Assembly: GCF_006345805.1 (NCBI RefSeq) | Contig: NC_043002.1 | Location: 60,760,001 to 60,824,000, forward strand | Origin: Octopus sinensis | Lineage: Eukaryota | Length of the DNA: 64,000 nt | Direction: 5' to 3' | Shown here: positions 885 through 61,876 of the stretch, piece after piece | How the letters are laid out: each line of letters begins with the position of its first letter | Numbering within the stretch: position 1 is the first letter of the stretch | Translations under genes and position numbers: made by a program | The notes under the pieces: generated by a model | Told to the model about the DNA's origin: nothing | The model's input: only the letters and a program-made list of their open reading frames with translations | Databases searched by the model: none

Positions 885-2611
885 CATATATTTATATATA
901 TACATAAAAGAAAATACGAAATTCCAATGAATTTTATGTCATTGTTAGCGGAAGTGAAACCGGTCGACAAACATAATACTCTTTCAATTATAAAATATTA
1001 AAAAAAATATATTAGAATTATGTAAAATGTGTACATTTTCCTTCTTTTATTGTATTCATATATATATATTGCATTACAACTCACCACGTGAGGATAATCA
1101 AAATGTTTTGTTACTATATATATGTGTGTGTGTATATGTGTGTGAGTGGGTGTATGTGTGTGTGTTCCTATTAGTGCAAGTAGTCCATGTAACTTCAATC
1201 CATTACAATTAGCTTGTCTAATTTATGTGTATGTTTCATTCATATAGCCATTACTTTCCTTTTGTAATCATACAACACGCTCAAATATCATCTTTATAAT
1301 ATTCTACTTTCGTACATTTAATATTTTCTAAGAAATGACAGCCCGTTTTTCTTTATTCCGTTGTTTCTTTTACTTACACTATATTTTAATATTCACAAAT
1401 TGACGAACGTCATTATATAATTTATTAATCTAATTTATCCATTTCACAGACTGTTATGAATCTCTACTAAATTAATTATACATTTCTCAGTTCAGTTCTA
1501 GTTTAGCATGAACAGTTTTTAGGATTATTTAACCATCTCCAAATTTACTCCAACTAATCCACCATCGACTTAATAAGATTTACATAACTCTTATGATATC
1601 TAAATTTTCATACTACATCTTATATGACGCAGACGCTTCACCATATTATACCATTCCCTTGCTGTAGATATTTTTTTCTAATCCAAATGCGTCCTTCCAT
1701 TTCATGACGTACAAGACTTCAAAAATTAGTTTAGATTTAATCCTCATCTCTCGAAATTTATTTGCACATTTCACAATTTTTAATTTCATAATGTTTCAAA
1801 AATCTTTAACACATTGCTGAGCTTTTTTTGCAGCAGGATTTCGAACCCGTATCTCTAGATATGCGGTCAGGTATCACGAGTAAACCACAATAGTTTCACG
1901 TGATCCATCTATTAAGCAACCAATCACCATTAATCCATCCTGAGACTCAATTTTCTAGAATCTCCATCTTGTATTCACTCTCTACAAGGTCGCTTATGCC
2001 GTTAATTAATTGAATAATGCTAGGGCAGTTATACGATGTGTCTCAATTCTTCTGCCAAACCGGAAATCCACACAGGCGGCTCAGTGAGTTGAAAAAACCT
2101 TCGTCACCACGAATATAGCAAAATTGTTTGCAATTACACTGTGCAAGATGCATAATCACTTTATGTGCAATGAGAAAATCTCTTGTTAAATGTTCGTAGG
2201 TGTTGTTTAATTACTTCTCCAAGCAGCACAAGAAGCATTATCATTCCTCAACTCAATCACCACTATAGACCAGACAACAACAAACACACAAGTCACAGGT
2301 TAATCACAGTAAACTGGGCTTTTATAAATCATGCTCATATCAGGTCAGGTATTGTACATCAGCCAACAGATCTTTCTACATTTTCCGTTTCCCATTTTCC
2401 TTTCTCTATATCTATTTACACGTAATCCTTACTATATCTTCTATACCTTCATGTTAATGCCCTCTTTGTCTCCTCCTTTCAAACTGAACCACAGCTCCAC
2501 CCTCCTTGTATTTTATGCATTTCTTCTCAGCTGAGACACCTTTCTCTTATGGTTTCGTGTTCTCACATTCTTTATTCTTAGTTTATTTTCTCTAAAAATA
2601 ACTTCATTATA

Positions 2612-3895
2612 CGAGGGGCATTCAATAAGTAATGCCCCTGACCCACTTCCCATAGCAGTAGAGCAACGAAACTTGGCACAGTTATTAGTCTTTTTCTACA
2701 TAGGAACCACCCGGAGTTACGCATTTCTCCCATCGTTTGATGCAGCTCTGAAGACCGTTTTTGTAGAAGACCCCAGCTTGGTCCTCCAACCACGACGTGA
2801 CTTCAGAAATCAAGGCTGCATCATCTGGGAAACGCTTTCCTTTCAAAAACAACTTCATGGCTGGGAAGAGGTGGAAATCAGAGGGTGCAGGTCAGGAGAG
2901 TAGGGAGAATGGGGGATGAGTTCATAGCCGCACGCCTGTGCTTCTGATCTGGCGACACGCGAGTTGTGGATCGGAGCGTTGTCCTGCAGGAGGAAGATGC
3001 CTTTGCTGATCTTGCCCCGCCTCTTTAAGCTTCTCTTAAATTCCTCAAAAGTGAAGCATAATAGACTCCTGTAATTGTGGTACCCTTTGCCAAGAAATCT
3101 GTCATCACTACTCCGTCCTGGTCCCAGAAGACTGTGAGCATGACCTTGCCAGCGGAGAGCTGCACCCTTGACTTCTTTGGAGGAGGTGAGTCACGGTGCG
3201 TCCACTGCATTGACTGGGCTTTGGTCTCTGGATCATAGTGATGGACCCAGGTTTCATCCTGTGTAATCAGTCTTTTGAAAAATTTTGACTCATCTTCTTG
3301 GCCCATCTTCAAATTCATCCTCGCGCAATCGACGCGTTCTTGCTTCTGGAAAGGTGTGAGCAGCCTGGGAATCCATCTCGCAGACACCTTTTGCATATGC
3401 AAATGGTCATGAATGATAGTTTCTACAGACCCGGTACTAATCTTGACCTAATGGGCTATTTGGCGAATAGTTATGCGTCGATCTTCCAAAATGGCAGCCT
3501 CAACTTGACGGACAGATGCCTCATCAATGGCAGAAGGGGGCGACCAGATCTGGGAGCTGTTTCCACAAAGTTCCGACCATGTTTGAATTCACGATGCCAG
3601 CGTTTTATAAGGTCATATGATGGGGCATCATCACCATAAGTTACTTTTATTTCATCAAAAGTCTCCCGTAGTGTGCGTCCTTTCAAATACAAAAACCGGA
3701 TCACTGCTCGACACTCAACAGGCTCCATTTCACACTTGACTCAGTTCAAACACCTGTATATCAGAAACCACAATTAGTTCAGAGCTGTAATTTGCCGCTT
3801 AATCTATAGAGATATAAATAATTGCACATGTAAATTTTCAGCTAGATCAAACACCTGCAAGTGGGTCAGAGGCATTACTTATTGAACGCCCCTCG
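2612..3895 (-). mobile_element. Mariner (DD34D) DNA transposon, full length, copy 1
   Basis: 37-bp TIRs: CGAGGGGCATTCAATAAGTAATGCCCCTGACCCACTT at 2612 and its reverse complement (2 mismatches) ending at 3895. TA dinucleotide on both flanks (2610-2611, 3896-3897). Confidence 0.96.
2685..3728 (-). pseudogene. Mariner transposase pseudogene (frameshifted)
   Basis: ORF pieces MEPVECRAVIRFL..., WIPRLL, LITQDETWVHHYDPE, KVMLTVFWD, LQDNAP, HSPYSPDL..SDFHLF, ending YVEKD*. Interrupted by frameshifts and stops. Confidence 0.93.
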
Positions 3896-4050
3896 TATGT
3901 TTCTCTCTCTTTGTCTAATTTCTCAACGTTTTGGATATTATTCCCTCCCCATTCTTTGCCATTATGCCTTCTGATAACGATATTCTATGATTAGATATAT
4001 GAATGTGCTTCTCTACCATGGTTCATTATCTTTGTTTATATACATTTGAT

Positions 4051-4734: not shown

Positions 4735-4957
4735 ACATGTACGTTGTCATGGTCGGTCTTTCACACCACTGGTAACATATAACCCAATACAATCTGTTGC
4801 ATGATCGGGTCGACGGCGACTAAACTGGGAAATCCATCAAGCTTGCTTGGTGAGAAGTGTGATTGTTGGTCATTCCCAGGACGAAAAATAAAACCTGAGA
4901 AAGGGCGGAAGAACTCATAAGCAGTCAATGGTCATCCTACAATATGTATACATGTGT

Positions 4958-5174
4958 AAGGCGGCCAGCGGGCGGAAAAGTTAGCACGTCGGGCGAACTA
5001 CTTAGTGATATTTCGTCTGTCTTTATGTCCTAATTTCAAATTCCGCCGAGGCCGACTTTGCCTTACATCTTTTCGGGTTCGATAAATTAAGTACCAGTTG
5101 CGTACTGAGGTCGATCTAATCGACTGCCTCCCTCCCCCAAAATATCCGGCCTTGTGGCTAGAGTAGAAAAGAAT
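4958..5174 (+). mobile_element. SINE family B monomer
   Basis: AAGGCGG... head, TTCAAATTCC B-box-like motif, TTTTCGGGTTCGATAAATTAAGTACCAG central domain, GTAGAAAAGAAT end. Many copies in the window. Confidence 0.85.
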
Positions 5175-5899
5175 ATGTATTATATGTGTATGTACGCATG
5201 TATATATCAACGGGGACCCTCGGTTGTTGTCACAACAGCTTTCGAAGAAAGGGAAACTCACAGAAAACATGACAATATTCGATGATGTAGATTGGTTTTT
5301 CTTTTCAAGTTTATGTTGTCCATGTACAGAAAGTGAGATTGGATTCGTGCAAATCATTTCCCCAGAATAAAAAATCGCCATGCTCAGGCATCGCTTGAAA
5401 TAATACCTCTCATAAATATGGATAGTTGTAGCCTTCACATGTGTGAGACTTTCGATGAAGCGATGATAGTATTCGAACACGAGTTTGCAGCCCCATTATA
5501 TAAACATATATGTATGTATATGTGTATATGTGTATGTGTGCTTAGGTTTAGTTGTACAGACGGGATAAATTGAACTCTAAACATTGGTGTATATGCATAT
5601 TATTTACAGTATGGTGTATGATAAGGAGAGGTTCAAAATAAGGATTTCGTCAATGTCACACTTAACCGCGATGGCGTGATTACATTCGATACCTTAAGAA
5701 TGTCAGGTATTTAAATACATATACATTCCCCTCTCATACCTACGGATTTTCATGGTTTATTTATTCCCCATCAAATACTACATCGATTGAATCTTGAGAA
5801 TTTCAACTGCTTCAACGACATTGTAAATTGGATTTCACTGTATTCATTTATTATATGGAGTGTTAGCAGAGTCCGTAAGAGAGTCTTCTGTGACAGCCA

Positions 5900-7714: not shown

Positions 7715-7817
7715 GTGAGAAAATGGTTAAGCAATAGTTAATTTAGATAAGATACGAAATACAGAGGTGGAGGAAAGGGAAAAATTATTAATTATTCCCC
7801 TTAAATATATTTATTTG

Positions 7818-8085
7818 TATTAAGGGCTAGTGTACATAAATGCCTCACTTTAAGAGGGAATCTTAAAGTCAAAACTATCATAATAAGCACATTCTCCCGA
7901 ACGCGAGGGAAAGTGACTCTCGAAGAGAGCATCTTCAAAACAGATGATCTGCGGCTGAATCTGTTTTTAAGATGCTCGATTCGAGAGTTGCATTCTCTCG
8001 CGTTCAGTAAAATGTGTCTATTATGGTAGTTTTGACTTTAAGAGTCCCGCCTAGTGTGAGTCATTTACGTATAGTAATGCCCTTA

Positions 8086-8088
<3 letters not shown>
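7818..8088. repeat. Diverged inverted repeat, ~128-bp arms, 13-nt spacer
   Basis: 7818-7945 pairs with 7959-8088 (e.g. CTTAAAGTCAAAACTA/TAGTTTTGACTTTAAG, GAACGCGAG/CTCGCGTTC, GAGCATCTT/AAGATGCTC). Confidence 0.9.
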
Positions 8089-8139
<51 letters not shown>

Positions 8140-8410
8140 TTATTAATAAGGGTGAGAGAATTAGATACTAATTTAATAGTATACCTATTCAACACCAAGT
8201 GGCCCAGTGCCCCGAGAAACCTGGATTATTATAATATTTATAATATATTATAATTTTTATACAAAAATAAATATAAGAGAGTGGTCACTATGTGGCTCAC
8301 TCTAGCACTAGTAAATCCAAAAGGTTTCAACCACAAAAATACATGTTTCCCATGAAAGTCAGTACGATTGTTAGCTCACACGAACAGGGCAAATAAAAAA
8401 AACAAAAATA

Positions 8411-8505
8411 CAGATTATTTTGGGACAATTGTTTCGCTATTAATGAATTAAATGTAATTTTACTCACAAAAAACTCACTTGTAGCTCCTCAGCCAAAACT
8501 ATCTG
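8411..8505 (-). ncRNA. Minimal type I hammerhead ribozyme (inverted copy)
   Basis: Reverse complement of the motif at 8780-8874. Confidence 0.85.
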
Positions 8506-8779
8506 GATGAAATCCACTCAATCACACGCCAGATTTTACCATAACGATAAATACACGTGTGGTTCAATTGATTACATCCGACGTTATAATTCAAATGCCC
8601 CTACCAACAGCGCGCCAAACTTTCACTACATTTATTTCTAAATGTAGTATTTGTTTCCGTGAAAGTTTGGCGCGCTGTTGGTAGGGGCATTTGAATTATA
8701 ACGTCGGGTGTAATCAATTGAACCACACGTGTATTTATCGTTATGGTAAAATCTGGCGTGTGATTGAGTGGATTTTATC

Positions 8780-8874
8780 CAGATAGTTTTGGCTGAGGAG
8801 CTACAAGTGAGTTTTTTGTGAGTAAAATTACATTTAATTCATTAATAGCGAAACAATTGTCCCAAAATAATCTG
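8780..8874 (+). ncRNA. Minimal type I hammerhead ribozyme
   Basis: ttttgg-CTGAGGA-gcta...tagc-GAAA-caattg-TC-ccaaaa. Helix I is extended by cagat/atctg. Predicted cleavage after C8861 (GUC). Confidence 0.88.
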
Positions 8875-9309
8875 TATTTTTGTTATTTTTTATTTGCCCT
8901 GTTCGTGTGAGCTAACAATCGTACTGACTTTCATGGGAAACATGTATTTTGTGGTTGAAACCTTTTGGGTTACTAGTGCTAGAGTGACCCACATAGTGAC
9001 CACTCTCTTATATTTATTTTTGTATAAAATATTATAATATATTATAAAATATTATAATAATCCAGGTTTCTCGGGGCACTGGGCCACTTGGTGTTGAATA
9101 GGTATACCATTAAATTAGTATCTAATTCTCTCATCCTTATTAATTAATTATAATTATGCTACATTTATTTCTAAATGTAGTATTTGTTCCGTGAAAGTTT
9201 GGCGCGCTGTTGGTAGGGGCATTGAATTATAACGTCGGATGTAATCAATGAACCACACGTGTATTTATCGTTATGGTAAAATCTGGCGTGTGATTGAGTG
9301 GATTTCATC

Positions 9310-9403
9310 CAGATAGTTTTGGCTGAGGAGCTACAAGTGAGTTTTTTGTGAGTAAAATACATTTAATTCATTAATAGCGAAACAATTGTCCCAAAATAAT
9401 CTG
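9310..9403 (+). ncRNA. Minimal type I hammerhead ribozyme (tandem copy)
   Basis: Same motif; CTGAGGA at 9323-9329, predicted cleavage after C9390. Confidence 0.88.
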
Positions 9404-9575
9404 TATTTTTGTTATTTTTTATTTGCCCTGTTCGTGTGGGCTAACAATCGTACTGACTTTCATGGGAAACATGTATTTTGTGGTTGAAACCTTTTGGATT
9501 TACTAGTGCTAGAGTGAGCCACATAGTGACCACTCGCTTATATTTATTTTTATATTTATTATTATATTTATTTAT

Positions 9576-9610
<35 letters not shown>

Positions 9611-9982
9611 TATTATATATATATATATATTATATATATATATATATTATATATTATATATATATATATAGATATATATATATATATATATAATATTGTT
9701 GTATTTCGAGACGGTCATTTTAATTTTGCCAAATAAACACACGCACTAGATATTTGTTATTCCCTTGTTTATTGTGTATTACTGTTCTTATTTCTTTGTC
9801 TTTGTATTTTAACTCATGTACATTGGTGGACGATGGACATGAGTTAAATTTTTAAAAATAAGAAGATACAATATCTGTTTCTACGCACGATTTCATAACA
9901 GGAATCTTGTAACACAAATTGATGTATATATATATATATACTTTCATATGTATATAAATACATATATTTGTATATCGATGTT

Positions 9983-14849: not shown

Positions 14850-17800
14850 TGTTTCATGGCCTTTCTCTCTCAGATGTTTTTTTGTAGGTAATAGTTCATC
14901 AAAGATTTATTTTATGCTCTTGGCAAACATTAACAATGCGGGCGACTTACCTGAACAGATGTTCGGGTTAGGTTTTACCCTGTAAACCCTTAAGAATTGA
15001 GTTAGTGCTGCATCATAGCTTAATTCATTTCCTGATGCTTTTTAGTGGTCGCTTAAATGTCTACGAAACTTTGTGTTTGCCCATTTGATTTCGGGTTGTA
15101 TGGTGGAGTAGAGATGTGATTGACTTCAAACCTCTCACAAATACTATAGTGTCCGAGACACCGTATCGCGCAAAAAATCGTGAAGGAACCTTAGTATTAC
15201 CATCGAGATTCGCTGACTGCATTTACATATCTCCGGACACTTGATACTGCTGTCTGCTAAGATCAGATAATATGTGCCGTTTACCGGTCCAGCAAAATCT
15301 ATATGAGGCTTGGACCAAGGACTGGCTGTCTTAAGCTACGACTGGAATTGCACTGGTGCTGTATGTAGGATTTCACCAATTGTTCATCTTCACGGCCCAT
15401 AGTAAACCAATACACGTAACACCCCATTACTGATTTCAATCTTGAAATCCTTGTATGTCCCATATGAAATTCACTTAATACACGCTTTTGTAGTGCGGCT
15501 GGCACTACAAATCTTTGAGCGTACATCAACACCTTATCGCATTGAGAAAAACGTTTCGCATTGGTGTTACGTGTATTTTAATTTTCTTTTACCTTCAACG
15601 TTTCTTCTATCTTTGGAATGAATTTGTCGTTCTCCGATTTCAAATTTTATATCTTGATCAGATACTGGCAACTCCCGAATGACGTTACTCAAAATGTCTT
15701 TCATTTCATTTCCGCTCGCAATGCGGCAATCACAGTATCTTCGAATAGTTCCGTATTTTCTGGAATTAAGTGTGATAAACAATACGCATGGCCTAACTTC
15801 TTGGATGGTATATACGCCATATTGAAGTCGTTATTCAACAATATCCTACCCCAGTGTTGTAACTATTTGCCGTATGGGTTAGGGTTAGCGTTAGGGTTAG
15901 GGTTAGAGTTAGGGTTAGTGACAAGATGTTGTCTCAGTTTTAGACGCAGCAAATGAGGCGATTGATTGTTTAAAATTCGAAAAATTAAACTACGTTAAAC
16001 TTACAAATTACACTTTTCTCAAGAAAGCCAAGAGAAAAAAATGTGTTATTTTGACACATTCTACCAGTATACGAAGTTTAAAAGTGTTTAGTTAAAAAGA
16101 AATTTTGTTGAAAACTGCCGTTCAAAAGGAAAAGATCCGAGTATAGTGCTATCAGAGAACGTGAGGCATTAACCATCAACTTCATATTACGGTCTTTATA
16201 TTTGTGTAACATTACTGCTCCTATGCTGTATTCAGAATTTTCAGAAGCTACAACAATCTTCGCTGCAAGATCGAAATGAACCAGCGACAAATCTGATGTT
16301 AATATTTTTTAATATCGTCAACCGCCTTTTGGCAATTATTTGACGAATTCCACTTCAAATCTTTTTTTAACAAATTATTCAGTGGAACTCTCAATTCATG
16401 CATATTTGGTATATAATTTTGATAATAATACTCTATACCTAGAAAAGCATGTAAGGTCGTTATATTAGTGGAAGGAGGCATATTTTTTTTCATTGCGTCT
16501 ACCTTCGATGGGTCCGGTCGTCGTCCATTCCTGTCGATAGAATGTCCTTAATACTTAATCTTAGGTAAGAAAAAATCACATTTTTCTCACTCGGTGTTAA
16601 ACCGTTATCTCTTATTTTTTGAAAATCACATTTTACATGCTTGACTTTTAACTAATACATCACCCAGGTATGGAATTGCGAATTCACATTCCGCTAACAC
16701 TGCATCCATAACCTATTGATAAATGACAGGTGCAACCTTTAGATCAAATGGTAATCTGCTATATTTATGTAGTCCTTTATACGTGTTCACTGTTAAGTAT
16801 TTTGGGCATACCTCGTAGGTACGCATTGGCGGGATGCAGTTTGGAAAATATCTAGCCCCCGTATAACTTCGGAAAAATATCCTCCCGTGTTTTCAGACAT
16901 TCATTGAAGCCACTGGAAAAATCAGCAGACATCCTGATTTGTTATTCTTTTTTATTTTGATATACACCGTTGGAGCTGCCCATTTTGCATATTCCACTTT
17001 AATGGATGAGTCCAGTTTTCCCTAATCTGTCTAAATTTTCATCGAGATGCTTTTTTGCAGCAAAAAGTACCGTTCTTTTTGGTTTGAACGTTGGTATTGG
17101 GTTTTCCTTAATTTGGAAACATGACTCAGTCTTAGTACACAAGCCTAAATCAACCAACACCACTATTTCTCCAATTCATCTGACGCCGTATTCTTACTGG
17201 AGGAATAATCATTTATATTTTTACAGAACAGATTTATGGAGAGGTCCCATAAATCAAACAACCCAATCCAGTCAGTACCGAACAAATTTGTTGCATTTTC
17301 TACAAAAACTTTTGCCTTACTGGTTTTACCACGAAATTTAATGTGGCTTATCATTTCCCCTAAGAAGTGTAACTTTTCACCTGTGAGGCCTCGCGCACTT
17401 TTCGATGTTTTATCTGATGTAGGCTTCCCACTTATACGTGTTGATATCAATACCAGTAATGTCGCTTCCCGTGTCTAGTTGTCGGTTCACATTTGTGTCG
17501 TTTATTTATGCATACGCGTACTGTCTTTTTGTTCAGAAATTTCTTTCTTCAGTTTTCATTACACCCGGTCTCAAGTTGATAATTCTTTAATATTGTTTTG
17601 CTACTGCCTGCAGGGTTAAATTCTGGTCCTTCTATTCTAGTTTTGTAAGAATCCGTGCACGCATTTCTGCATTTATGCCTACCATCATACGCTGCACAAA
17701 GATGAGGCATTTAAACATACCCCGAGATAATTCATTCAGTTTAAATTTTTCCCATATTTTATCTACGATTCTGGCATAACTGACAAAATCTACGTCCTCT

Positions 17801-18250
17801 TCTTTTAATAAATTTAAACAATCTCAGTGAGTATTAAACAGAGAACTCTTATCCCTGAACATTTTGGATAGCACTCCAATCTTACCTAAAAAAACAAATT
17901 CTAGTTGTTTTTTTAGGTAAGATAGAATTACAGTATTTTTCATGTTCTGAAGGAACTAGATTCTGAAACAGTAGTCTCACCTTTTCATCGTCTTCGTTAA
18001 AGATTTCTTCGTATCTTCTGAAAAACGCCGATAAAGTTATACCCGCTTCTGAGTTGTAATTAATTCAGTTGTGGCATTCGCTTCACCATCTGGCGAAAAC
18101 GAACTTGCGGTATTTCTTGACTTCAACATCAGTTCCAGCAACTGATTGTGTTGTAGTTGTTGCTGTTATACTAATTGGTGCAACTCCTGTAGCTGCTGTT
18201 GCTATTGCTTTTGCAACTGTAATATGTCATCTACTAGGTCTTCCATAATG
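14850..18250 (-). pseudogene. gag-pol remnants
   Basis: gag AFFRRYEEIF (~18020); protease QLDTGSD (~17470); RT APVIYQ..MDAVL..IPYLGD (~16660-16740); RNase H SEYSIGAVMLH..ASRSL; integrase VVPAALQKRVLSEFHMGH and HIDFAGP. Many stops and frameshifts. Confidence 0.9.
15876..16140. repeat. Short insertion beginning with (GGGTTA)~7 telomere-like repeats
   Basis: GGGTTAGGGTTAGCGTTAGGGTTAGGGTTAGAGTTAGGGTTAG at 15876-15918. The adjoining ~220 bp is not pol-like and interrupts the RNase H region. Confidence 0.7.
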
Positions 18251-22634: not shown

Positions 22635-23215
22635 CTTTTCTACTCTAGGCACAAGGCCCAAAATTTTGGGGGAAGGGGACAGTCGATTAGATCGACCTCA
22701 ATACGCAAGTGGTACTTAATTTATCGAACCCAAAATAATGAAAGTCAAAGTCAACCTCGGCGGAATTTGGACTCAGTGCGTCAGGACAGACAAAATATCT
22801 ATTTCTTTACTACCCACAAGGAGATAAACACAGAGGACAAACAAGGACAGACAAACAGATTAAGTCGATTATATCGACCCCAGTGTGTAACTGGTACTTA
22901 ATTTATCGACCCCGAAAGGATGAAAGGCAAAGTCGACCTCGGCGGAATTTGAACTCAGAATGTAACGACAGACGAAATACTTATTTCTTTACTACCCACA
23001 AGGGGCTAAAGATAGAGAGGACAAACAAGGACCGATAAACGGATTAAGTCGATTATATCGACTCCAATGCGTAACTGGTACTTATCTAATAGACCGCGAA
23101 AGGATGAAAGGTAAAGTCGACCTCGGCGGAATTTGAACTCAGAACATAACGGCAGACGAAATACGGCTACGCATTTCGCCCGGGTGTGCTAACGTTTCTG
23201 CCAGCTCGCCGCCTT
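22635..23215 (-). mobile_element. SINE family B trimer with target-site duplication
   Basis: One head at 23215 and three ~183-bp bodies. Flanked by AAAGCAGAGAACAATATT (22617-22634) and AAAGCAGAAAATAATATT (23216-23233). Confidence 0.88.
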
Positions 23216-23867
23216 AAAGCAGAAAATAATATTGATGAAAGATAACAATTCTTCTAACTTATTTGAACATAGGGAAAATCGAGGAAATACGTTTCTGATT
23301 TATTTTGACCTCATCAACAAAGCATGTTTTTTAGTGTATTTTCTGAAGTAGCAGTGAAAGAATCACTAAAGTAATCTGCAAAATTGTACACTTGATATGA
23401 TAAGAAAATAGAATCATGCTTCCCAGAATGAATATTTCTGGCACGAAATCGGCTTGACAAGTAAGTATTAAAGTAACGTTAACATATTTAATGCAAAGAG
23501 CGTTAGTATTTCGTGGGCAAATTATTGTAGTCTATTCTACGTTTACTTAATGTTCTTTCCACTATTACTTAAGAAATTATGGCGAAAGATGTGTTTCGTT
23601 GATGCATTAAATATACTAACACTAACTTTTCTATTGTTTTTTTATGCTAAGAGCATCACTAAATTATTCAACTTATCGTTTCGGCTGATCTAAAACCCTG
23701 AATGAGTTTCAGATTTGCTTGTTTGCTAAAAGGTTATATTTTCATTTTTTTACCCAAGTATAGAATCACAGATTTTATTTTAGTGTTGTGTTAAGGCACG
23801 ACATTGTAATATCAGATCTCATATTAGTAATTACGAGCTTTCTTTTCCTTTATTATTTTACTACGGT

Positions 23868-24535
23868 AAGGCGGCGAGATGGCAGAAACGTTAGCACACC
23901 GGGCGAAATGCGTAGCCGTATTCCGTCTGCCGTTACGTTCTGAGTTCAAATTCCGCCGAGGTTGACTTTGCCTTTCATCCTTTCGGGGTCGATAAATTAT
24001 GTACCAGTTACGCACTGGGGTCGATGTAATTGACTTCATCCGTTTGTCTGTTCTTATTTGTCCCCGCTGTGTGTGGCCCCTTGTGAGCAGTAAAGAAATA
24101 AGAAACATTAGTACACCAGCCGAAATGCTTTGTGGTATTTCGTCTGTCTTGACGTTCTGAGTTCAAATTCCGCCGAGGTCGACTTTACCCTTCATCTTTT
24201 CGGAGTCGATAAATTAAGTACCAGTTGCATACTGGGGTCGATCTAATCGACAGGCTTCCTCCCGCAAAATTTCGGGCCTTCTGTCTAGAGTAGAAAAGAA
24301 TATTAAGGGCGATGAGCTGGCGGAATCGTTAGCACGTTGGGCGAAATGCTTAGATGTATTTTGTCTACCGTTACGTTCTGAGTTCAAATTCCGCCGAGTT
24401 CGTGTTTGCCTTTCATGCCTTCGGGGTCGATTAAATAAGTACCAGTTAAACACTGGTAATCGACTTATTTCCTTTATCTCTCCTCCTTTTCCCCCTCTAT
24501 GTTTAGCCTCCCCCCGTGGGCAATAAAGAAATAAA
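23868..24535 (+). mobile_element. SINE family B cluster (dimer plus monomer)
   Basis: Heads at 23868 and ~24305; three TTCTGAGTTCAAATTCCGCCGAG bodies. Confidence 0.85.
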
Positions 24536-25946
24536 AGATATTATTTTGACTACGGTATACAACTTACATGGGTAGATTTAGCAAGTAGCTATTCTTTTTT
24601 AAACTACCAGAATAAATTCTTACATGTATACATACATAAAATACTTACGTATTACATATAAACATACACACATTGATAAAGACATGCATACATGTATTCA
24701 TACATAGTAACATAGTAGCATGCTTACATACATACATGCATGCATACATATATGCATACATACATGCCCAAAGAAACTTGCACCTTTTCTACTCACTGAA
24801 ATTACCAATTCACATTTATCTTTAGAACCTTCAACGTACATGTTTATAATACTAAATAAGTATTAATCTAGAAACGCCACTGTTTTCATGCTAACAATGA
24901 AACCCGTCATTATGCATTCCATACATTCTATCCATAAACGGAACAGTGAAAAAGAGAAAGAAAGCTTTTCTAAACTCCAATGCAGAAACATTTCTTGTTA
25001 TTGTTATCTTGTTCCAGTGATATTCTCTCACCATTTCAGCTGATCGCCTCCTCTCCATCAATACTGCACACAATTCAAGACTGCTTGTCATTCATGATGT
25101 TATATGCTTTTCTTTTTTTCATTTTATTTTTCGCTAGTTAGAAACCCTGTGTACTTTAGAGTAATACCAAGACCCATTATCGTGATGATCATCATTTTCT
25201 CTATTCATGTGTGGCTTGAACTTGCTTCAAACAAATATGGTAACCAAGTAGTATAATCGCTTTGGTAGTAATTTACGTTTTATAGAGTTACGTGTTTTAT
25301 GCAATAACTTGTACTTTATTCCATCGAATGTATGTTATACGCGTAACTTTTTGTTAAATATTTCCGAGGAAACTGCCATTCATTTCCTCAGCTAGCTAGA
25401 AATAGCAAAGAAATCACTCCTAAGCGAGAAAGAAGGAGGGTATATGAGCTTTCGCTCCGAATAAAAGATGCCTTAAACATATCGAAAAATATTCGAAAGT
25501 TTTAATCCAATATTTTCTGGATCGTGATTGAGCACCGTGCGGATTGAACTCCAAAATTTCAGCAGTAACTTATATTGATGCAAATTACAGTATCATAATG
25601 TGATCCTATTAAGCTTTGTATTCAACTTAATGAATTAACTGATGGGGTTACAGACCACATTTTAACGCGTGTGTACAAGTTTGACTGCCTTACAGCTTAA
25701 AATCAAATCTCGCCCGATTCAACAATTTGTATGGAGATATCTATTATCCTGATGATTCTAAGATACCAACTAGTAATAGAATAGCCATCGATCTCTTTCA
25801 ATATAAATTTCTTCATAAAAGTTAGCATTTTTTTCTTCTATTCTAACCGCAGAAAACTAAACATATTATTATCTCAAAATATTCGCGACCGATTTATGAA
25901 ATAAATGTGGTTTCACTTTTCATCTGAGGACAATAAATATAAAATG

Positions 25947-32224: not shown

Positions 32225-32259
32225 TTATGTGTGTGTGTTAACGAAATTCGATACATGTA

Positions 32260-33542
32260 CGAGGGGCGTTCAATAAGTAATGCCCCTGACCCACTTCCCA
32301 TAGCAGTAGAGCAACGAAACTTGGCACAGTTATTAGTCTTTTTCTACATTGGAACCACCCAGAGTTACGCATTTCTCCCATCGTTTGATGCGGCTCTGGA
32401 CACCGTTTTTGTAGAAGAACCCAGCTTGGTTCTCCAATCTGAACGGGACTTCAGAAATCAAGGCTGCATCATCTGGGAAACGCTTTCCTTTCAAAAACAA
32501 CTTCATGATTGGGAAGAGGTTAATATCAGAGGGTCAGGAAAGTATGGGGGATGGGGAGGAGTTCATAGCCATACGCCTGTGCTTCTGATCTGGCGACAAG
32601 CGAGTTGTGGACCGGAGCGTTGTCCTGCAGGAGGAGGATGCCTTTGCTGATCTTGCCCCGCCTCTTGATTTTGATAACTTCTCTTAATTTCCTCAAAAGT
32701 GAAGCATAATAGGCTCCTGCAATTGTGGTACCCTTTGCCAGGAAATCTGTCATCACTACTCCGTCCTGGTCCCAGAAGACTGTGAGCATGACCTTGCCAG
32801 CGGAGGGCTGTACCCTTGCCTTCTTTGGAGGGGTGAGTCACGGTGCTTCCACTGCATTGACTGGGCTTTGATCTCTGGATCATCGTGATGGACCCAGGTT
32901 TCATCCTGTGTAATCAGTCTTTTGAAAAAATTTGACTCATCTTCTTGGCACATCTCCAAATTCACCCTCGAGCACTCGACGCGTTCTTGCTTCTGGAAAG
33001 GCGTGAGCAACCTGGGAATCCATCTCGCAGACACCTTTTGCATATGCAAATGGTCATGAATGATAGTTTCCACAGACCCGGTACTAATCTTGACCTCATG
33101 GGCTATTTGGCGAATAATTATGCGTCGATCTTCCAAAATGGCAGCCTCAACTTGACGGACAGATGCCTCATCAATGACAGAAGGGGGCGACCAGATCTGG
33201 GAGCTGTTTCCACAGAGTTCCGACCATATTTGAATTCACGATGCCAGCGTTTTACAAGGTCATATGATGAGGCATCATCACCATAAGTTACTTTCATTTC
33301 ATCAAAAGTCTCCCGTGGTGTGCGTCCTTTCAAATACAAAAACCTGATCACTGCTCGACACTCAACAGGCTCCATTTCACACTTGACTCGGTTCAAACAC
33401 CTGTAAATCAGAGACCACAATTAATTCAGAGCTGTAATTTGCCACTTACTCTATAGAGATAGGAATGATTGCACATGCAAAATTTCAGCTAGATGAAACA
33501 GCTGCAAGTGGGTCAAAGGCATTACTTATTGAACGTCCCTCG
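32260..33542 (-). mobile_element. Mariner DNA transposon, full length, copy 2 (same family as 2612-3895)
   Basis: TIRs CGAGGGGCGTTCAATAAGTAATGCC..., TA flanks at 32258-32259 and 33543-33544; colinear with copy 1. Confidence 0.96.
32333..33375 (-). pseudogene. Mariner transposase pseudogene (frameshifted)
   Basis: MEPVECRAVIRFL, WIPRLL, ITQDETWVHH, LLQDNAPVH spread over several frames. Confidence 0.93.
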
Positions 33543-33584
33543 TATAGGGAGGCTTTTCGAAAAATTAATTCAACCTTCAAACAG

Positions 33585-35485
33585 TGGTTTCAGATTTTGG
33601 CATAAGACCAGCAACCTCGGAGTGCGAGGGAGTCGATTACATCGAACCCAGTGATCGACTGGTACTTATTTTATCGAATCAGAAATGATGAAAGACAAAG
33701 TCGATATCGGCAGAATTTGAACTCGATACCTAAAAGCTGCAGAAATGCCTCTAATCATTTTGCCCAACGTGTTAATGATTCTGCCAGCTCGTTGCCTCTT
33801 TCAACCATGAAATATTAACGGTCCGCATTACAATTATTTCTATTAAAGGTACAAGGCCTGAAATTTGTGGGGAGAGTACAGGTCAATTACATCGACCCGT
33901 GTTTCACGGGTACTTAATTTATCGACCCCGAAAGGATGAAAAATAAATTCGAGAATTGGCAGGATGTGAACTCAGTATGTAGCGGTCGGCGAAATATCTA
34001 TTTCTTTGCTACCCACAAGGGGCTAGACACAGAAAGGACAAACAAGGACAAACAACGGATTAAGTCGATTATATCAACCCCAGTGCGTAACTGGTACTTA
34101 TTTAATCGAAACCGAAAAGAAGAAAGGCAAAGTCGACCTCGGCGGAATTTGAACTCAGAACGTAGCGGCCGGCGAAATACCTATTTCTTTACTACCCACA
34201 AGGGGCTAAACACAGAGAGGACAAACAAGGACAGACAAATGGATTAAGTCGATTATATCGACACCAGTGCGTAACTGGTACTTATTTAATCGACCCCGAA
34301 AGGATGAAAGGCAAAGTCGACCTCGGCGGAATTTGAACTCAGAACGTAGCGGCAGCCTTATGTTCCGTATGAAAACGTAATCGTATCTGTAACGTTATTA
34401 ATTCATAAATGAACAAATGACAGCACACTGTGAGGCACTTAGCCAGTTTGGTAGTTTACTTGTAATTAAGCACCAGTTGCGCACTGGGATCGATATAATC
34501 GACTGGTCCCTCCCACCAAAAGTCGGGTCTTGTGCCTAGAGTTGAAAAACAAATATTTGATAGTTTACGCATTTGTATTATAATTGTTTATATAATTGTT
34601 TATGCATTTGTACGTCGTTTATTTTATACTCTGAGTATTTAGGTTGCCATAATCAGCTCTGATATATTAAGAAAACGATTTTCTTATGAAAAGACACAGT
34701 CCAATATAAAATCACACCAGTATTGCCTTCACAAAACTGGCAGTTTAGTGGTTTTGTCATAATCCTTTCTTCTACAGGTACAGGGCCTGGAATTTGAGGG
34801 GACATAGCTAGTCGATTACATCGACCCTAGTGCTCCACCAGTGCTTACTTGATAGACAATAGAAGAATAAAAATGTCGACCCCAGCATTGTTTGAACTAA
34901 GAACTAAAGAACGGATGCATTTTGCCCGGCGTGCTAACGATTCTGCCATCTCACCGCCTCTTAGTTTTATTATAAAGGTTTCAAGTTTGGCACGAGGCCA
35001 CAAATATCGGGGCAAGTGCTAAGTCCGTTACATCAACCCCACTGCTCGACTGCTACTTATTCTATTGACCCCTCGAAAGAATGAAAGGCAAAGTTTGAAC
35101 TGTCGTGAGGCATTTTTTCCGGCGTGTTAACGGTTCTGCCAGCTCACCGCCTTATTTTGCTTTCGTTACAATCAGAACGAAATAGTAGGGAAATGACAAA
35201 ACCATCACGGGCCAGTAACAACAAAATTTGATGTCATAAAAATTCTAACGCTACGCAAGCAATAATTGTTTCGAAGTTTAGAACAGAACCAATAATTTTA
35301 GTACGTTGGGTAATCGGTTACATCGGTGCCAGTACATGATGCGTCCGCTACTTTACCGACCACTGAAGAATGAATAGCAAAGTGAAACTCGGTGGTATTT
35401 GATCTCAGGGTATAAAAAGCTGGAAGAAATGTCGGTAAGCAACTATTCCGAGACGCTAATGAGTCTGTTAACTCACCGTCTTGTT
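33585..35485 (-). mobile_element. SINE family B cluster including a head-truncated trimer (33835-34356)
   Basis: Repeated CTGGTACTTA..TATCGACCCCGAAAGGATGAAAGGCAAAGTCGAC bodies with a 183-bp period; older diverged monomers on both sides. Confidence 0.8.
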
Positions 35486-43868: not shown

Positions 43869-44343
43869 ATATTAAAATTCTAAAACTATTTAAAGCCAGT
43901 GGTAAACAAAATAACAAAATTCACTGAGTTAAGAGACTTCGTGGTGTTTATAAATATACATAGTAGAGCTGAGGTGTTAGTCAAACGGTCGATGAACACA
44001 CCGAGTGCATGGGCCTCTTTGCGTAAAGAATTTTACATGGAGAATCTGTGGAATGTCTTCAAACTTTTCGGAGTAGCCCTAAGAAATTAGATTTGGAGAA
44101 TGCGTGGACGAGATTTTGATTCTTTGCTCTGTCTCCTAGTAGGTGTCATTGACATTTCGTTAAGGGCTATGAAAAAAGTTTCGGAGCAAGTACAAACAAC
44201 ATTAAGATAAAATATGACCCTGGAGTATGCTACTTAACATAAGTGCCAGAATGAATAGAGTGCATTCATTTTGTTCGACTAAACTCTTTAAGGTGGTGTC
44301 CCGACATAGCCACTGCCCAATAACAGAGACGTGTAAAATATAT

Positions 44344-44578
44344 AAGGCGGCGAGCTGGCAGAAACGTTAGCACGCCGGGCGAAATGCTTAGGGGTATTTC
44401 GTCTGTTATTACGTTCTGAGTTCAAATTCGGTCGAGGTCGACTTTGCCTTTCATCCTTCCGGGGTCGATAAATTAAGTACCAATTACGCACTGGGGTCGA
44501 TCTAATCGACTTAATCCCTTTGTCTTGTTTGTTCCCTCTGTGTTTAGCCCCTTGTGGACAAAAAAGAAATAAGAAACA
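44344..44578 (+). mobile_element. SINE family B monomer
   Basis: AAGGCGGCGAGCTGGCAGAAACGTTAGC head through AAAGAAATAAGAAAC. Confidence 0.85.
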
Positions 44579-44779
44579 TGCAAAATATTAAAAAAAATAT
44601 GATATTAATTTTTTTCCTCCAAATTATGGGGTTTATTTTAATAGATAATTGATAGAAAATATACCAGTTATCTGGAAGCGGCAGGAATGGTGCTGGTGAG
44701 AATGTAGTTAATAATGTAAACATTACGGCGTGAAATAATAATAATAATAAAGATAATAATAATAATAATAATAATAATA

Positions 44780-48167: not shown

Positions 48168-48443
48168 AATTGAACTTTCCTTTATGCTACTATTTTATCC
48201 TCGGTGTGTTTGTCTGTGTGTGTGTGTGTGTGTGTGGTGTGTGTGTGTGTGTGTGTGTATGCATTGGCGTATATGTGTAATCACAGAAAATAAGGGAATA
48301 TTTAATTTTAGTGTTAAATTATGTATTTTCAAATTAATTTGACTTATATTTCATTTTAAAGCCCGTTTTTTGCTCTATCTAATCGTGTTACTCTTTTTCT
48401 TTTTGAATAATTAGGCCATTTTTTCCGGAACGTTAAATACAAG

Positions 48444-49202
48444 ATGGACAAAAGGCAAATTCACACAAGTGTCTTACTCCAGTTCAAGCTAGGCCGAAAA
48501 GCTGCTGAAACAACTCGCACTATCAACGATGCGTTTGTCCCTCGAGTCACTAATGAATGTACAGCGCAGTGGTGGTTCAAGGAATTTCGTAGCGGTGACG
48601 AGTATTGAAGATAAGCATAGTGGTTGGCCATCGAATGGTGACAACGATCAACTAAGAGCCTTAGTCGAAGCCAATCCACGCACAACTGTTCGAGAGCTTG
48701 CTTCTGAATTAAACGTAACATATACCACAATTTCCAACTACATGCGTTCTCTCAGCAAATGGATGAAATGCATGAGAAACTCCGACAACAACAGCCGGTA
48801 TTGGTCAATAGAAAAGGACCAATTCTTCTCCATGACAACGCTCAGCCGCAGGTCGCACAACTGACTCTGCAGAAGTGGAACGAATTGGGCTACGAAACTC
48901 TGCCTCATTCGCCATACCCACCAGACCTCTTGCCTACTGACTACCGCTTTTCCAGCCATCTCGACAACTTCCTGTGTGAGAAATGCTTAAAAAACCAAGA
49001 CGATGCCAAACATGCCTTCAATGACTTCATCGCACCAGAACGTAGGATATTTACGCTACTGGCTTAAATAAAGTTGTTTCGCGTTGGCAAAAGCGTGTTG
49101 ATTCTGATGGTGTTTGTTTCGATTAATAAAGTTTTGTTTGAGACGAGATTTGTGCATCTGAATTAAAGGTTAAAAACTACAAGAACTTTCTTAACAACCT
49201 AA
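48444..49202 (+). mobile_element. Second mariner family (SETMAR/Hsmar1-like), internally deleted, 3' TIR present
   Basis: MDKRQIH..FKLGRKAAETTRTINDAF..; QLRALVEANPRTTVRELA fused to RKGPILLHDNA..LPHSPYPPDLLPTDY, so the first catalytic D region is missing. 3' TIR ..CTTAACAACCTAA followed by TA. Confidence 0.9.
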
Positions 49203-49860
49203 TATATCCCTCTGTCTCTCTCTCTACTCTCAGTTTTTTGTCTTTTTGTATACATTTTGAAATACACGCACACACACACACGTATATATATATATATATA
49301 CGTGTGTGTGTGTGCGTGTATTTCAAAATGTATACAAAAAGACAAAAAAACTGAGAGTAGAGAGAGAGACAGAGGGATATATTAGGTTGTTAAGAAAGTT
49401 CTTGTAGTTTTTAACCTTTAAATTCAGATGCACAAATCTCGTCTCAAACAAAACTTTATTAATCGAAACAAACACCATCAGAATCAACACGCTTTTGCCA
49501 ACGCGAAACAACTTTATTTAAGCCAGTAGCGTAAATATCCTACGTTCTGGTGGCGATGAAGTCATTGAAGGCATGTTTGGCATCGTCTTGGTTTTTTAAG
49601 CATTTCTCACACAGGAAGTTGTCGAGATGGCTGGAAAAGCGGTAGTCAGTAGGCAAGAGGTCTGGTGGGTATGGCGAATGAGGCAGAGTTTCGTAGCCCA
49701 ATTCGTTCCACTTCTGCAGAGTCAGTTGTGCGACCTGCGGCTGAGCGTTGTCATGGAGAAGAATTGGTCCTTTTCTATTGACCAATACCGGCTGTTGTTG
49801 TCGGAGTTTCTCATGCATTTCATCCATTTGCTGAGAGAACGCATGTAGTTGGAAATTGTG
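48726..49860. repeat. Near-perfect 1.13-kb palindrome centred on (CA)n(TA)9(TG)n
   Basis: 48726-49291 is the reverse complement of 49292-49860, differing by a few 1-nt homopolymer indels. It produces the mirrored ORFs in the ORF track. Confidence 0.95.
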
Positions 49861-50220
49861 TATGTATATGTGTGTGTATGTATATATGAGTGTATGTGTG
49901 TATAAGCGTATCATTCTAAAACGACGGAACCGTTCATTTAAACCAATTTAAACCTTGTTTCAAAGGACATTTGTCATACACGAAGTCTACGTGCAGGGTC
50001 CGGCGTCTTATCTCTAGAGATAACATTGTTATGGTTCGCTGCAACACTAGTGCCAAATACAGGTATATATATTTGATTATGTATAACTTTATATACGTTT
50101 GATTATATATATGTATATATGTCTTACCATTAATTATGTATATATATATTTATATGTGTTATATATATATACGCATACACATACACACACACATATATAT
50201 ATATATGTAAACACAGATGC

Positions 50221-57478: not shown

Positions 57479-58601
57479 AAGGCGGCGAGATGACAGAATC
57501 GTTAGCACGCCGGGTGAAATGCTCAGCGGTATTTCGTCTGCCGTTACCTTCTGAGTTCAAATTCCACCAAGGTCGACGTTGCCTTTCATCCTTTCGGGGT
57601 CGATTAAATAAGTACGAGTTACGCACTTGGGTCCATGTAATCGCCTTAATCCCAGATTCCTAGCGCTTTTGAACCGGTGTAATATTTCTATCGTTATAAT
57701 TCATAATTTGTTTTTAACGTAAACATTATGCCAACATTTTTGACACAACAGCACGACAGAGCCCGATTTTTACAAGAACTTACTTTATGGAAACTATAAT
57801 TATACTGTCAATGACAACCACGAAAAAAGCGTTTGAATGCAGAATACAATCATGATATAATTTAACACAGACAAGTTTGTCTAGTGCTAAATGTTCCTGG
57901 TTTTGTAGGCATTAAAGAGATATTATTCTTTAGTGAAGTAAGGTGGCAAGCTGGCAGAAATGTTAGCAAGCCGGGCAAAATGTGTAGCCGTATTTCGTCT
58001 GCCCTTTCGTTCTGAGTTTAAATTCCGCCGAGGTCGACCTTGCCTTTCATCCTTTCGGGGTCGATAAATTAAATACTAGTTACGCACTGGGGTCGATGTA
58101 ATCGACTTAATCCGTTTGTCTGTCCATGTTTGTCCCTTCTGGGCAGGAAAGAAATAGTTATTTCGTCTACCGCTACGTTCTGAGTTCAAAATCTGCCCAG
58201 GTCGACTTTGCCTTTCGGAGTCGATAAATTATGTACCAGTTGAATACTGGGGTCGATCTAATCGATTGGCAACTCGACCTCGACGGAATTTGAACTCAGA
58301 ACGTAACGGCACACGAAATACCGCTAAGCATTACGCCCGTGGTGCTAACGTTTCTGCCAGCTCGCCGCCTTTTAATGAATTATATTATTTTGTACTCTCG
58401 GCGAGGGCCCGAAATTTTTTGGGAGGAGGCCAGGCGATTAGATCAACTCCAGTAGCCAAATGGTACGTAATTTATCGACTTCGATAGGGTTGAAAGGCAA
58501 AGTCGATCTCGGGGGAATTTGAACTCAGAACGTAATGACAGACAAAATACAGCTAAGTATTTCGCCCGGCGCGCTAACGTTTCTGCCCGCTCACCGCCTT
58601 G
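57479..58601. mobile_element. SINE family B cluster with opposed copies
   Basis: Plus-strand copies at 57479-57650 and 57940-58265; minus-strand copies at 58272-58372 and 58385-58601. Confidence 0.85.
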
Positions 58602-61035: not shown

Positions 61036-61078
61036 TATATATACATACATATATATATATATACATTCATACAGAATC

Positions 61079-61136
61079 AGTTCTGCTGATGATCATAAGA
61101 CGTAAGTTGAATGTGAAATCACGGTGATACAGAACT
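61079..61136 (+). ncRNA. Type I hammerhead ribozyme
   Basis: agttctg-CTGATGA-t-cat-aa-gac(gtaa)gtt-ga-atg-t-GAAA-tcacggtga-TA-cagaact. Predicted cleavage after A61129. Confidence 0.88.
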
Positions 61137-61558
61137 AAATTCATTTTTTAAATGTCTTGCTTTGAAAAACTGCATTTGGGTATGATTAGTATAATTTTGG
61201 TAGTAATGACTTTGTTCCTCTTAGTGTGAGGCATTTATGTGTAATAATGCCCTCTATACAATATAGATATAATTAATTTGTTCAAAAGAAAAAAATTATT
61301 TTCGAATTCTTTTCTTTTATGAGGTTTTCACGCTAGCTGCCCGATAATTTCTTGTTAAGATCCCTTATTAAGAGATTATCCTTAATTGTTAAACTTATTC
61401 CGAAATACTTTTCATTACCCGACATGCAGTTCGTAAAAAGCCCACCATTTACCGGATATATGATTTATAAACATTCCATGTGCTTGGCCGGAGTGAGCAG
61501 TTGTCTGTTCGTCTTCGCTACGTAAGGTTGGTAGTTTATTTATGATGTGTTCAGAATC

Positions 61559-61616
61559 AGTTCTGCTGATGATCATAAGACGTAAGTTGAATGTGAAATC
61601 ACGGTGATACAGAACT
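61559..61616 (+). ncRNA. Type I hammerhead ribozyme (second copy)
   Basis: Identical to 61079-61136. Predicted cleavage after A61609. Confidence 0.88.
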
Positions 61617-61876
61617 AAATTCATTTTTTAAATGTCTTGCTTTGAAAAACTGCATTTGGGTATGATTAGTATAATTTTGGTAGTAATGACTTTGTCCCTC
61701 TTAGTGTGAGGCATTTATGCGTAATAATGCCCTCTATACAATATAGATATAATTAATTTGTTCAAAAGAAAAAATTATTTTCGAATTCTTTTCTTTTATG
61801 AGGTTTTCACGCTAGCTGCCCGATAATTTCTTGTTAAGATCCCTTATTAAGAGATTATCCTTAATTGTTATACATT

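What the first reader, a model, noticed from the sequence alone, without database searches (positions are those of the whole stretch)
8133..9553. Triple-hammerhead element: ~530-nt tandem unit plus fold-back, jointed at a 10-bp hairpin
Seen: a ~495-bp near-perfect inverted repeat followed by a further direct copy. Each copy has a minimal HHR with a canonical core (CUGAGGA/GAAA/GUC), a self-complementary helix III (ACAATTGT) and an unusually long (~42 nt) loop II. The plus-strand cleavage sites 8861 and 9390 are 529 nt apart. Both the inversion junction and the tandem junction fall at the same hairpin, ACTACATTTA-TTTC-TAAATGTAGT (8625-8648). Known: partial-tandem plus inverted termini are the hallmark of Penelope-like elements, whose minimal HHRs with palindromic helix III act as dimers. 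Inference: this is a second, unrelated non-autonomous ribozyme retroelement. Its two tandem HHRs could form the dimer in cis, and the hairpin may be the self-priming or template-switch point.
Basis: partly seen in the sequence, partly recalled or inferred. Interest (0 to 1): 0.85.

Follow-up and report, generated by a model that had tools for sequence, protein, structure and literature searches.

The report
Octopus hammerhead retrozyme with Penelope-type fold-back
A 530-base non-coding repeat carrying a hammerhead ribozyme motif sits here as two head-to-tail copies plus one inverted copy, the layout known from Penelope retrotransposons, so it is likely a new (probably octopus) family of an already described kind of parasitic element, copied by a Penelope enzyme.

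Summary
The structure is real: (TA)n, inverted arm A (8131-8626), unit B (8626-9158), partial unit C (9159-~9553), (TA)n. There are three intact hammerhead cores (0 hits in 200 shuffles), with cleavage sites 529 nt apart. Public runs of four organism labels hold the unit; contigs cover it end to end with its ends joined and almost never run on into other sequence. It is therefore a multi-copy, ORF-less tandem family. The inversion fits hairpin self-priming (9 of 531 positions could do so) with a 12-nt slip, and the hairpin shows one compensatory change in the family. Two direct copies plus an inverted one with a junction palindrome, explained by self-priming, is published for Penelope elements (PMC3846280); retrozymes as Penelope parasites is published too. 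Verdict: a new family of a known kind. Cleavage, circles and the mobilising enzyme are untested.

The parts
8087..8134 (.). Left (TA)n flank, likely part of the target; no target-site duplication can be read
   Evidence: sequence
8131..8626 (-). Arm A: inverted copy of 8659-9152 (~495 nt), head-to-head with B, 33 nt shorter at its inner end
   Evidence: 6 substitutions against B in 482 nt
8411..8505 (-). Hammerhead A (type I), core at 8492, C17 at 8424
   Evidence: span mapped from B through the gap-free arms
8625..8648 (+). Junction hairpin; on the minus strand a 9-bp stem with GAAA loop whose last base is paired, followed by a 12-nt skip at a 2-nt microhomology
8626..9158 (+). Unit B: one full ~530-nt non-coding unit
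   Evidence: stops in all six frames
8780..8874 (+). Hammerhead B: helix I 7 bp + A.A mismatch + 5 bp; helix II 4 bp extended by 8 + 5 bp; helix III 2 bp + AAUU loop; C17 at 8861
8862..9390 (+). Predicted self-cleaved monomer, 529 nt, 33% GC, strongly self-paired (linear z -4.9; circular z -4.2)
   Evidence: covered in 30 of 30 bins by 4 of 4 runs, ends joined in 4 of 4
9158..9181 (+). Second copy of the hairpin; read contigs show A9161G with T9178C (A-U pair to G-C pair)
9159..9553 (+). Unit C: partial copy (~395 nt) ending where B enters an AT-rich stem-loop (~9025)
9310..9403 (+). Hammerhead C, core at 9323, C17 at 9390
9554..9696 (.). Right imperfect (TA)n flank

Best explanation
This is one insertion of a multi-copy, non-coding 530-nt tandem repeat with a type I hammerhead motif (a non-LTR retrozyme), likely copied into a (TA)n tract by a Penelope reverse transcriptase acting in trans, with the inverted arm likely made by self-priming at the junction hairpin. 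Shown: the layout, the three cores, the lack of an ORF, the family in public runs, the shared rare alleles of the arms. Inferred steps: (1) a tandem transcript self-cleaves, as monomer or dimer, to 529-nt units that may be ligated to circles; (2) the enzyme nicks AT-rich DNA and starts inside the RNA near 9553, copying 1.75 units (C then B); (3) the new strand ends at 8626, where its last 9 bases fold into a hairpin, slips 12 nt at a 2-nt microhomology and copies itself back for ~495 nt to give arm A; (4) that end joins the (TA)n target. Self-priming by an antisense RNA would leave the same junction and is not excluded. The locus itself is probably a dead end: read-through transcripts would form a ~495-bp duplex.
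For: Three intact cores, 0 hits in 200 shuffles. Unit held by 20 of 24 listed runs, 10 studies, 4 organism labels. 3014, 1550, 380 and 57 contigs laid; 30 of 30 bins covered; end-to-start joint in 4 of 4 runs; B-C junction bridged (X9 records 29 and 30, 9131-9244; X1 record 6, 9139-9218); share running on into unlike sequence 0, 0, 0, 0.05. No ORF in the unit; none of 144 window frames tested (140 of 157 filtered frames plus 4 added) gave a Penelope RT or GIY-YIG Pfam hit. At 9 sites where about 80% or more of X1 depth reads another letter (8903, 8992, 9081, 9102, 9161, 9215, 9260, 9340, 9341), every arm that covers the site has the window's letter: one source. Only 9 of 531 unit positions give a minus-strand end with 8 or more paired terminal bases, and the junction is one (a test made after the fact). 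Compensatory pair in the hairpin. Same layout in Adineta Penelope elements: two direct plus one inverted pLTR, the inverted one 37 bp shorter, palindromes at the junction, read as self-priming (PMC3846280, passages). Internal RT initiation and AT-rich nicking shown for a Penelope-type protein (PMC11167929). The one protein hit of a nearby frame is from Octopus bimaculoides, 62%; O. vulgaris has 30 recently active Penelope families (PMC13282606, passages).
Against: No autonomous partner identified and no sequence link to a Penelope pLTR tested. No strand-change joint at the hairpin in any of 4 runs; the only one listed is 9111-9267 in X2, so this locus's inversion was not seen independently. 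The two outer ends differ by ~127 nt, not the 30-40-nt Penelope 'tail'. No target-site duplication readable. Of 12 family changes at paired positions of the predicted circle, 7 keep the pair and 5 break it, including A9179T next to the compensatory pair. The dimer fold depends on the construct: 0.87-0.88 in 3 of 8, 0.35-0.55 in 2, 0.03 or less in 3. 8 of 9 Xenopus retrozyme dimers did not cleave in vitro (bioRxiv 2026.07.22.740005). The monomer is longer than the 170-400 nt tested by Cervera 2020.
Confidence: 0.7

Rival explanations
1. The tandem retrozyme inserted first; the inverted arm arose later at DNA level, by a break or stalled fork folding back at the hairpin and rejoining the (TA)n tract, with no Penelope enzyme involved in the inversion.
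For: Fold-back at short inverted repeats is a general DNA repair outcome (recalled). Another palindrome unrelated to this element lies at 48718-49871. No recurrent inversion seen in family contigs.
Against: The arm stops at (TA)n inside element sequence and takes in no host flank. If B had aged before being copied, A would carry B's private changes; it carries 0 of 4 in the three-way region and is closer to C (2 substitutions) than to B (4). The layout matches the standard Penelope pattern (PMC3846280, PMC8557442).
Confidence: 0.12
2. The unit is the pseudo-LTR of an autonomous Penelope element and this locus is a truncated remnant of it, not a separate parasite.
For: pLTRs carry type I hammerheads and give this exact layout (PMC4209133, PMC3846280). 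Logan contigs are short (most listed pieces about 80 nt) and may hide a rare ORF-bearing form; only 24 of 148 loose ends were shown.
Against: The two direct copies are 530 nt apart with no room for an ORF; family contigs join unit end to unit start and almost none runs on into unlike sequence; frameshifting one-base insertions are common in the family, e.g. at 8946 in about 35-40% of DNA depth; the ribozyme is the canonical, not the minimal, type.
Confidence: 0.11
3. The inverted arm is an assembly fold-back artefact; only the tandem dimer is real.
For: The window holds a palindrome with 0 substitutions in 563 nt per arm (48718-49871), so this assembly may contain fold-backs; the arms here differ by several one-base gaps in runs; the junction was not seen in contigs; no raw reads were available.
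Against: A and B differ by 6 substitutions in 482 nt. Polishing towards other copies does not explain this, since A keeps rare alleles such as G9102, where 99% of X1 and X2 depth reads A. The junction is asymmetric and sits at a family hairpin.
Confidence: 0.07

Closest known systems
Metazoan non-LTR retrozymes (Cervera and de la Pena 2020, PMC7229834; Li, Clavereau, Pollet 2026, bioRxiv 10.64898/2026.07.22.740005)
   Same: Non-coding tandem units, canonical type I hammerhead in each, GC under 50% (33% here), self-paired monomer, multi-copy; meets the preprint's working definition (two consecutive units with complete motifs); length inside its 51-972 bp range.
   Different: Longer than the 170-400-nt elements tested; helix II extended to a three-part rod; carries an inverted arm, which the parts I read of these papers do not describe; no cephalopod example found in my searches; expression and circles not shown.
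Endonuclease-bearing Penelope-like elements, e.g. Pen2a_Av and the Pen3a-mobilised cargo of Adineta vaga (PMC3846280); structure summary in PMC8557442
   Same: Two direct repeats plus an adjacent, shorter inverted copy, head-to-head; palindrome at the junction; AT-rich or microsatellite target; hammerhead in the repeat; pLTRs alone sufficed for trans-mobilisation.
   Different: No RT or GIY-YIG ORF; only ~130 nt between the matching parts; no 30-40-nt tail or target-site duplication readable; ribozyme not of the minimal type.
Minimal Penelope hammerheads (Cervera and de la Pena 2014, PMC4209133)
   Same: Type I topology, palindromic positions 15.2-16.2, dimer-compatible.
   Different: Minimal forms lack helix III, have a short helix I (4-5 bp) and an unpaired base before helix II. 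Here helix I is 7+5 bp, helix III is 2 bp plus tetraloop and there is no such bulge.

Membership tests
Non-LTR retrozyme | Tandem units, each with a complete type I hammerhead | tested here: met
   B and C, cores intact, 529 nt apart; unit ends joined in 4 of 4 runs
Non-LTR retrozyme | No coding region | tested here: met
   six-frame stops; no Pfam family above its cut-off in the 4 unit frames scanned
Non-LTR retrozyme | GC below 50% and a self-paired monomer | tested here: met
   33% GC; z -4.9 linear, -4.2 circular
Non-LTR retrozyme | Multi-copy in the genome | tested here: met
   thousands of variant contigs per deep run, four organism labels; copy number not measured
Non-LTR retrozyme | Monomer of about 150-450 nt | tested here: inconclusive
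   529 nt: above the range in PMC7229834, inside the 51-972 bp of the 2026 preprint
Non-LTR retrozyme | Self-cleavage; expressed as linear and circular RNA | not testable with these tools
   only contigs were offered, none on record as RNA
Autonomous Penelope-like element | ORF with RT and GIY-YIG endonuclease between pLTRs | tested here: not met
   no ORF; no such Pfam hit in 144 frames
Penelope-type insertion | Partial tandem plus adjacent, shorter inverted copy with a junction palindrome | tested here: met
   compare PMC3846280
Penelope-type insertion | AT-rich or microsatellite target | tested here: met
   (TA)n on both sides; such tracts are common in this window, so weak
Penelope-type insertion | 30-40-bp tail at one end; target-site duplication | tested here: inconclusive
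   outer ends differ by ~127 nt; both lie in TA-rich sequence, so boundaries blur
Penelope-derived non-autonomous element | Sequence homology to the pLTR of a host Penelope family | not testable with these tools
   no genome held; no repeat library offered
Minimal (Penelope-type) hammerhead | No helix III, short helix I, unpaired base between A9 and G10.1 | tested here: not met
   against the definition in PMC4209133

The most novel reading that the evidence does not exclude
A family-wide, structurally conserved hairpin programs the fold-back: it is the signal at which the Penelope enzyme ends the first strand and self-primes the second. An ORF-less retrozyme would then carry the full Penelope integration fingerprint, giving junction-level proof that Penelope enzymes mobilise animal retrozymes from circles, and a 530-nt substrate for settling in vitro whether inverted termini come from cDNA snap-back or from an antisense template.
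Probability: 0.2. Interest if true: 0.6.

Novelty: new member of a known kind. Interest (0 to 1): 0.35.

Why it matters
It extends hammerhead retrozymes to what is probably an octopus, where my searches found no report, and shows one with the inverted-plus-tandem layout of Penelope insertions. That backs, at the level of a junction, the published but unproven idea that Penelope enzymes copy animal retrozymes. If the hairpin proves to be a recurrent fold-back point, it gives a small, testable model for how Penelope inverted termini form. If not, it is one more family of a described class.

Tried and rejected
No genome is held, so copies could not be aligned genome-wide. Rfam: nothing at gathering score; the 11 E-value hits are hairpin look-alikes below their cut-offs. 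Pattern scans found nothing in metagenome contigs, viral contigs (53) or prokaryote genomes (54), as expected for an animal repeat. No RNA holder listed; X9 is only guessed to be RNA, so nothing is claimed on expression. Depth is lowest just after the hairpin in the three DNA runs (table 2), but summed contig depth follows fragmentation and divergence, so I did not read it as 5' truncation. The purine changes opposite U in extended helix II (9340, 9341, and two more seen only in loose ends) keep pairing, but any A/G change opposite U does, so this is weak. The sigma-70 promoter scan does not apply to an animal and gave fewer sites than shuffles. Searches of earlier findings returned nothing. 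The ~184-nt repeat family was checked as the possible 'first' ribozyme element: no hammerhead core found. Rejected: 'minimal HHR', 'tandem junction at the hairpin' as evidence, and a coding role for the 62-66-aa frames in the unit.

Full report
Observation. The sequence shows (TA)n 8087-8134, an inverted arm A (8131-8626, the reverse complement of 8659-9152), a full unit B (8626-9158), a partial unit C (9159-~9553) and imperfect (TA)n to 9696. Each copy holds CUGAGGA, GAAA and GUC with helices I-III; cleavage sites on the plus strand are 8861 and 9390. Three scans of the 64 kb found only these three motifs, and 0 of 200 shuffled windows gave one. Rfam does not detect them.

The ribozyme. Helix I is 7 bp, an A.A mismatch and 5 bp more. 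Helix II is 4 bp, and the '42-nt loop' folds as a further 8 + 5 bp rod. Helix III is 2 bp closed by AAUU. By the definitions in PMC4209133 and PMC7229834 this is the canonical invertebrate type I form, not the minimal one; coral and mussel ribozymes of this class cleaved as monomers. In ViennaRNA the single motif's active fold lies about 3 kcal/mol above the ensemble, while for 8760-9410 the double-hammerhead with an 8-bp shared helix III is the minimum-energy fold. That result depends on the construct: 0.87-0.88 in 3 of 8, 0.35-0.55 in 2 and 0.03 or less in the 3 that start at 8700 or earlier. In the whole plus-strand transcript, ribozyme B is lost in the A:B duplex (helix probabilities 0.00). 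These are predictions without tertiary contacts.

The family. No genome is held. Twenty of 24 listed runs, from 10 studies and 4 organism labels, hold the unit; all are Logan contigs. I laid 4 of them on the predicted monomer 8862-9390: 3014, 1550, 380 and 57 contigs, all 30 bins covered, the end-to-start joint in 4 of 4, the B-C junction bridged, and shares of 0, 0, 0 and 0.05 running on into unlike sequence. So the whole 530 nt, including the ~130 nt that C lacks, is a tandem unit of a multi-copy family and not a pLTR beside an ORF, as far as short contigs show. No listed substitution falls in the catalytic core, the base of helix II or helix III; table 5c shows diverged variants just after the cleavage site. 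Of 17 listed sites, 5 are unpaired in the predicted circle, 7 keep their pair and 5 break it. One is a two-sided change in the hairpin (A9161G with T9178C; other letter 96% and 78% of X1 depth, 95% and 29% of X2); the neighbouring A9179T breaks a pair and is common in X8 and X9. The host is probably an octopus: the one hit of a nearby frame is an O. bimaculoides protein at 62%, which is a hint only.

One event, not an artefact. At nine sites where about 80% or more of X1 depth reads another letter, every arm covering the site has the window's letter, so the arms share one source. A and B differ by 6 substitutions in 482 nt; in the three-way region B has 4 private changes, C 2 and A none. A read-level fold-back would copy B's changes into A. 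The palindrome at 48718-49871 has 0 substitutions in 563 nt and shows what such an artefact could look like. About 8 changes in 1420 nt would mean an age near 1.5 million years on the calibration in PMC13282606 (rough inference). Against: the A-B junction itself was not seen in the contigs, which drop rare variants, and 76-80% of the two deep runs were read.

The junction. On the minus strand B ends at 8626 in a 9-bp stem with a GAAA loop and a paired last base. Perfect self-priming would give a palindrome centred on that loop; the locus is that palindrome minus 12 nt bounded by a 2-nt repeat (read). Nine of 531 unit positions offer 8 or more paired terminal bases, so the match is unlikely by chance, though the test was chosen afterwards. 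Arm A's outer end (9152) does fall just before the hairpin copy, in AT-rich sequence where joining to (TA)n is easy. One search lists no strand change at the hairpin, so a family-wide hot spot is not shown.

Mechanism. Most likely a Penelope enzyme in trans primed at a nick in (TA)n, started inside the RNA, copied 1.75 units from a circle or multimer, then self-primed at the hairpin and copied back (0.7). All enzymatic steps are inferred from PMC11167929, PMC3846280 and PMC7229834. Rivals: later DNA fold-back (0.12), remnant of an autonomous element (0.11), assembly artefact (0.07).

Comparison and novelty. It works like a Penelope insertion but fails the ORF test for an autonomous element. 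It meets the sequence tests for a non-LTR retrozyme; cleavage and circles are untested. The layout, junction palindromes and self-priming are in PMC3846280; retrozymes as Penelope dependants in PMC7229834 and the 2026 preprint. I found no cephalopod retrozyme in the listings, and no inverted retrozyme insertion. The library lacks most subscription papers, Repbase and Dfam could not be searched, and I read no supplements; those of PMC7229834, PMC8557442 and PMC13282606 may list this family. Verdict: new member of a known kind, interest 0.35.

What I saw of each paper. bioRxiv 10.64898/2026.07.22.740005: parts 1-3 of 5 and a term search. PMC11167929: parts 1-2 of 4. PMC4209133: parts 1-2 of 4. 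PMC7229834: abstract, passages, first third of Results, section 15, Discussion. PMC8557442, PMC13282606, PMC3846280, PMC7761336: passages only. DNA-level fold-back at short inverted repeats is recalled, not from a call.

Noticed in passing
window 48718-49871: Palindrome centred on a short (TA)n, 0 substitutions in 563 nt per arm, taking in a mariner piece and non-coding flank; candidate assembly fold-back or very recent inversion.
   Followed up: partly
window 7802-8104: Older fold-back (79% arm identity), MITE-like, abutting the left (TA)n of this element; unrelated in sequence.
   Followed up: no
window 22681-23164, 33909-34353, 23850-24540, 57900-58600, 44340-44580, 4957-5176: Dispersed family with a ~184-nt unit in partial tandems of about 2.5 copies, both orientations; no hammerhead core found; resembles a SINE or LINE 3' tail (recalled).
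   Followed up: partly
window 2610-3898 and 32258-33545; 48411-49100: Mariner-type transposase remnants; the first two copies are 93% alike.
   Followed up: no
window 15302-18064 (minus strand): Pieces with weak RNase H and integrase zinc-finger hits and a DUF7083 hit: likely a decayed LTR retrotransposon.
   Followed up: no
window 61072-61394 and 61552-61873: Direct duplication of 323 nt, 98.8% alike, 480 nt apart.
   Followed up: no
window 8965-8990: B's private changes near 8969 and 8988 together make a cleaner local hairpin than in A, C or most read contigs; unexplained.
   Followed up: no
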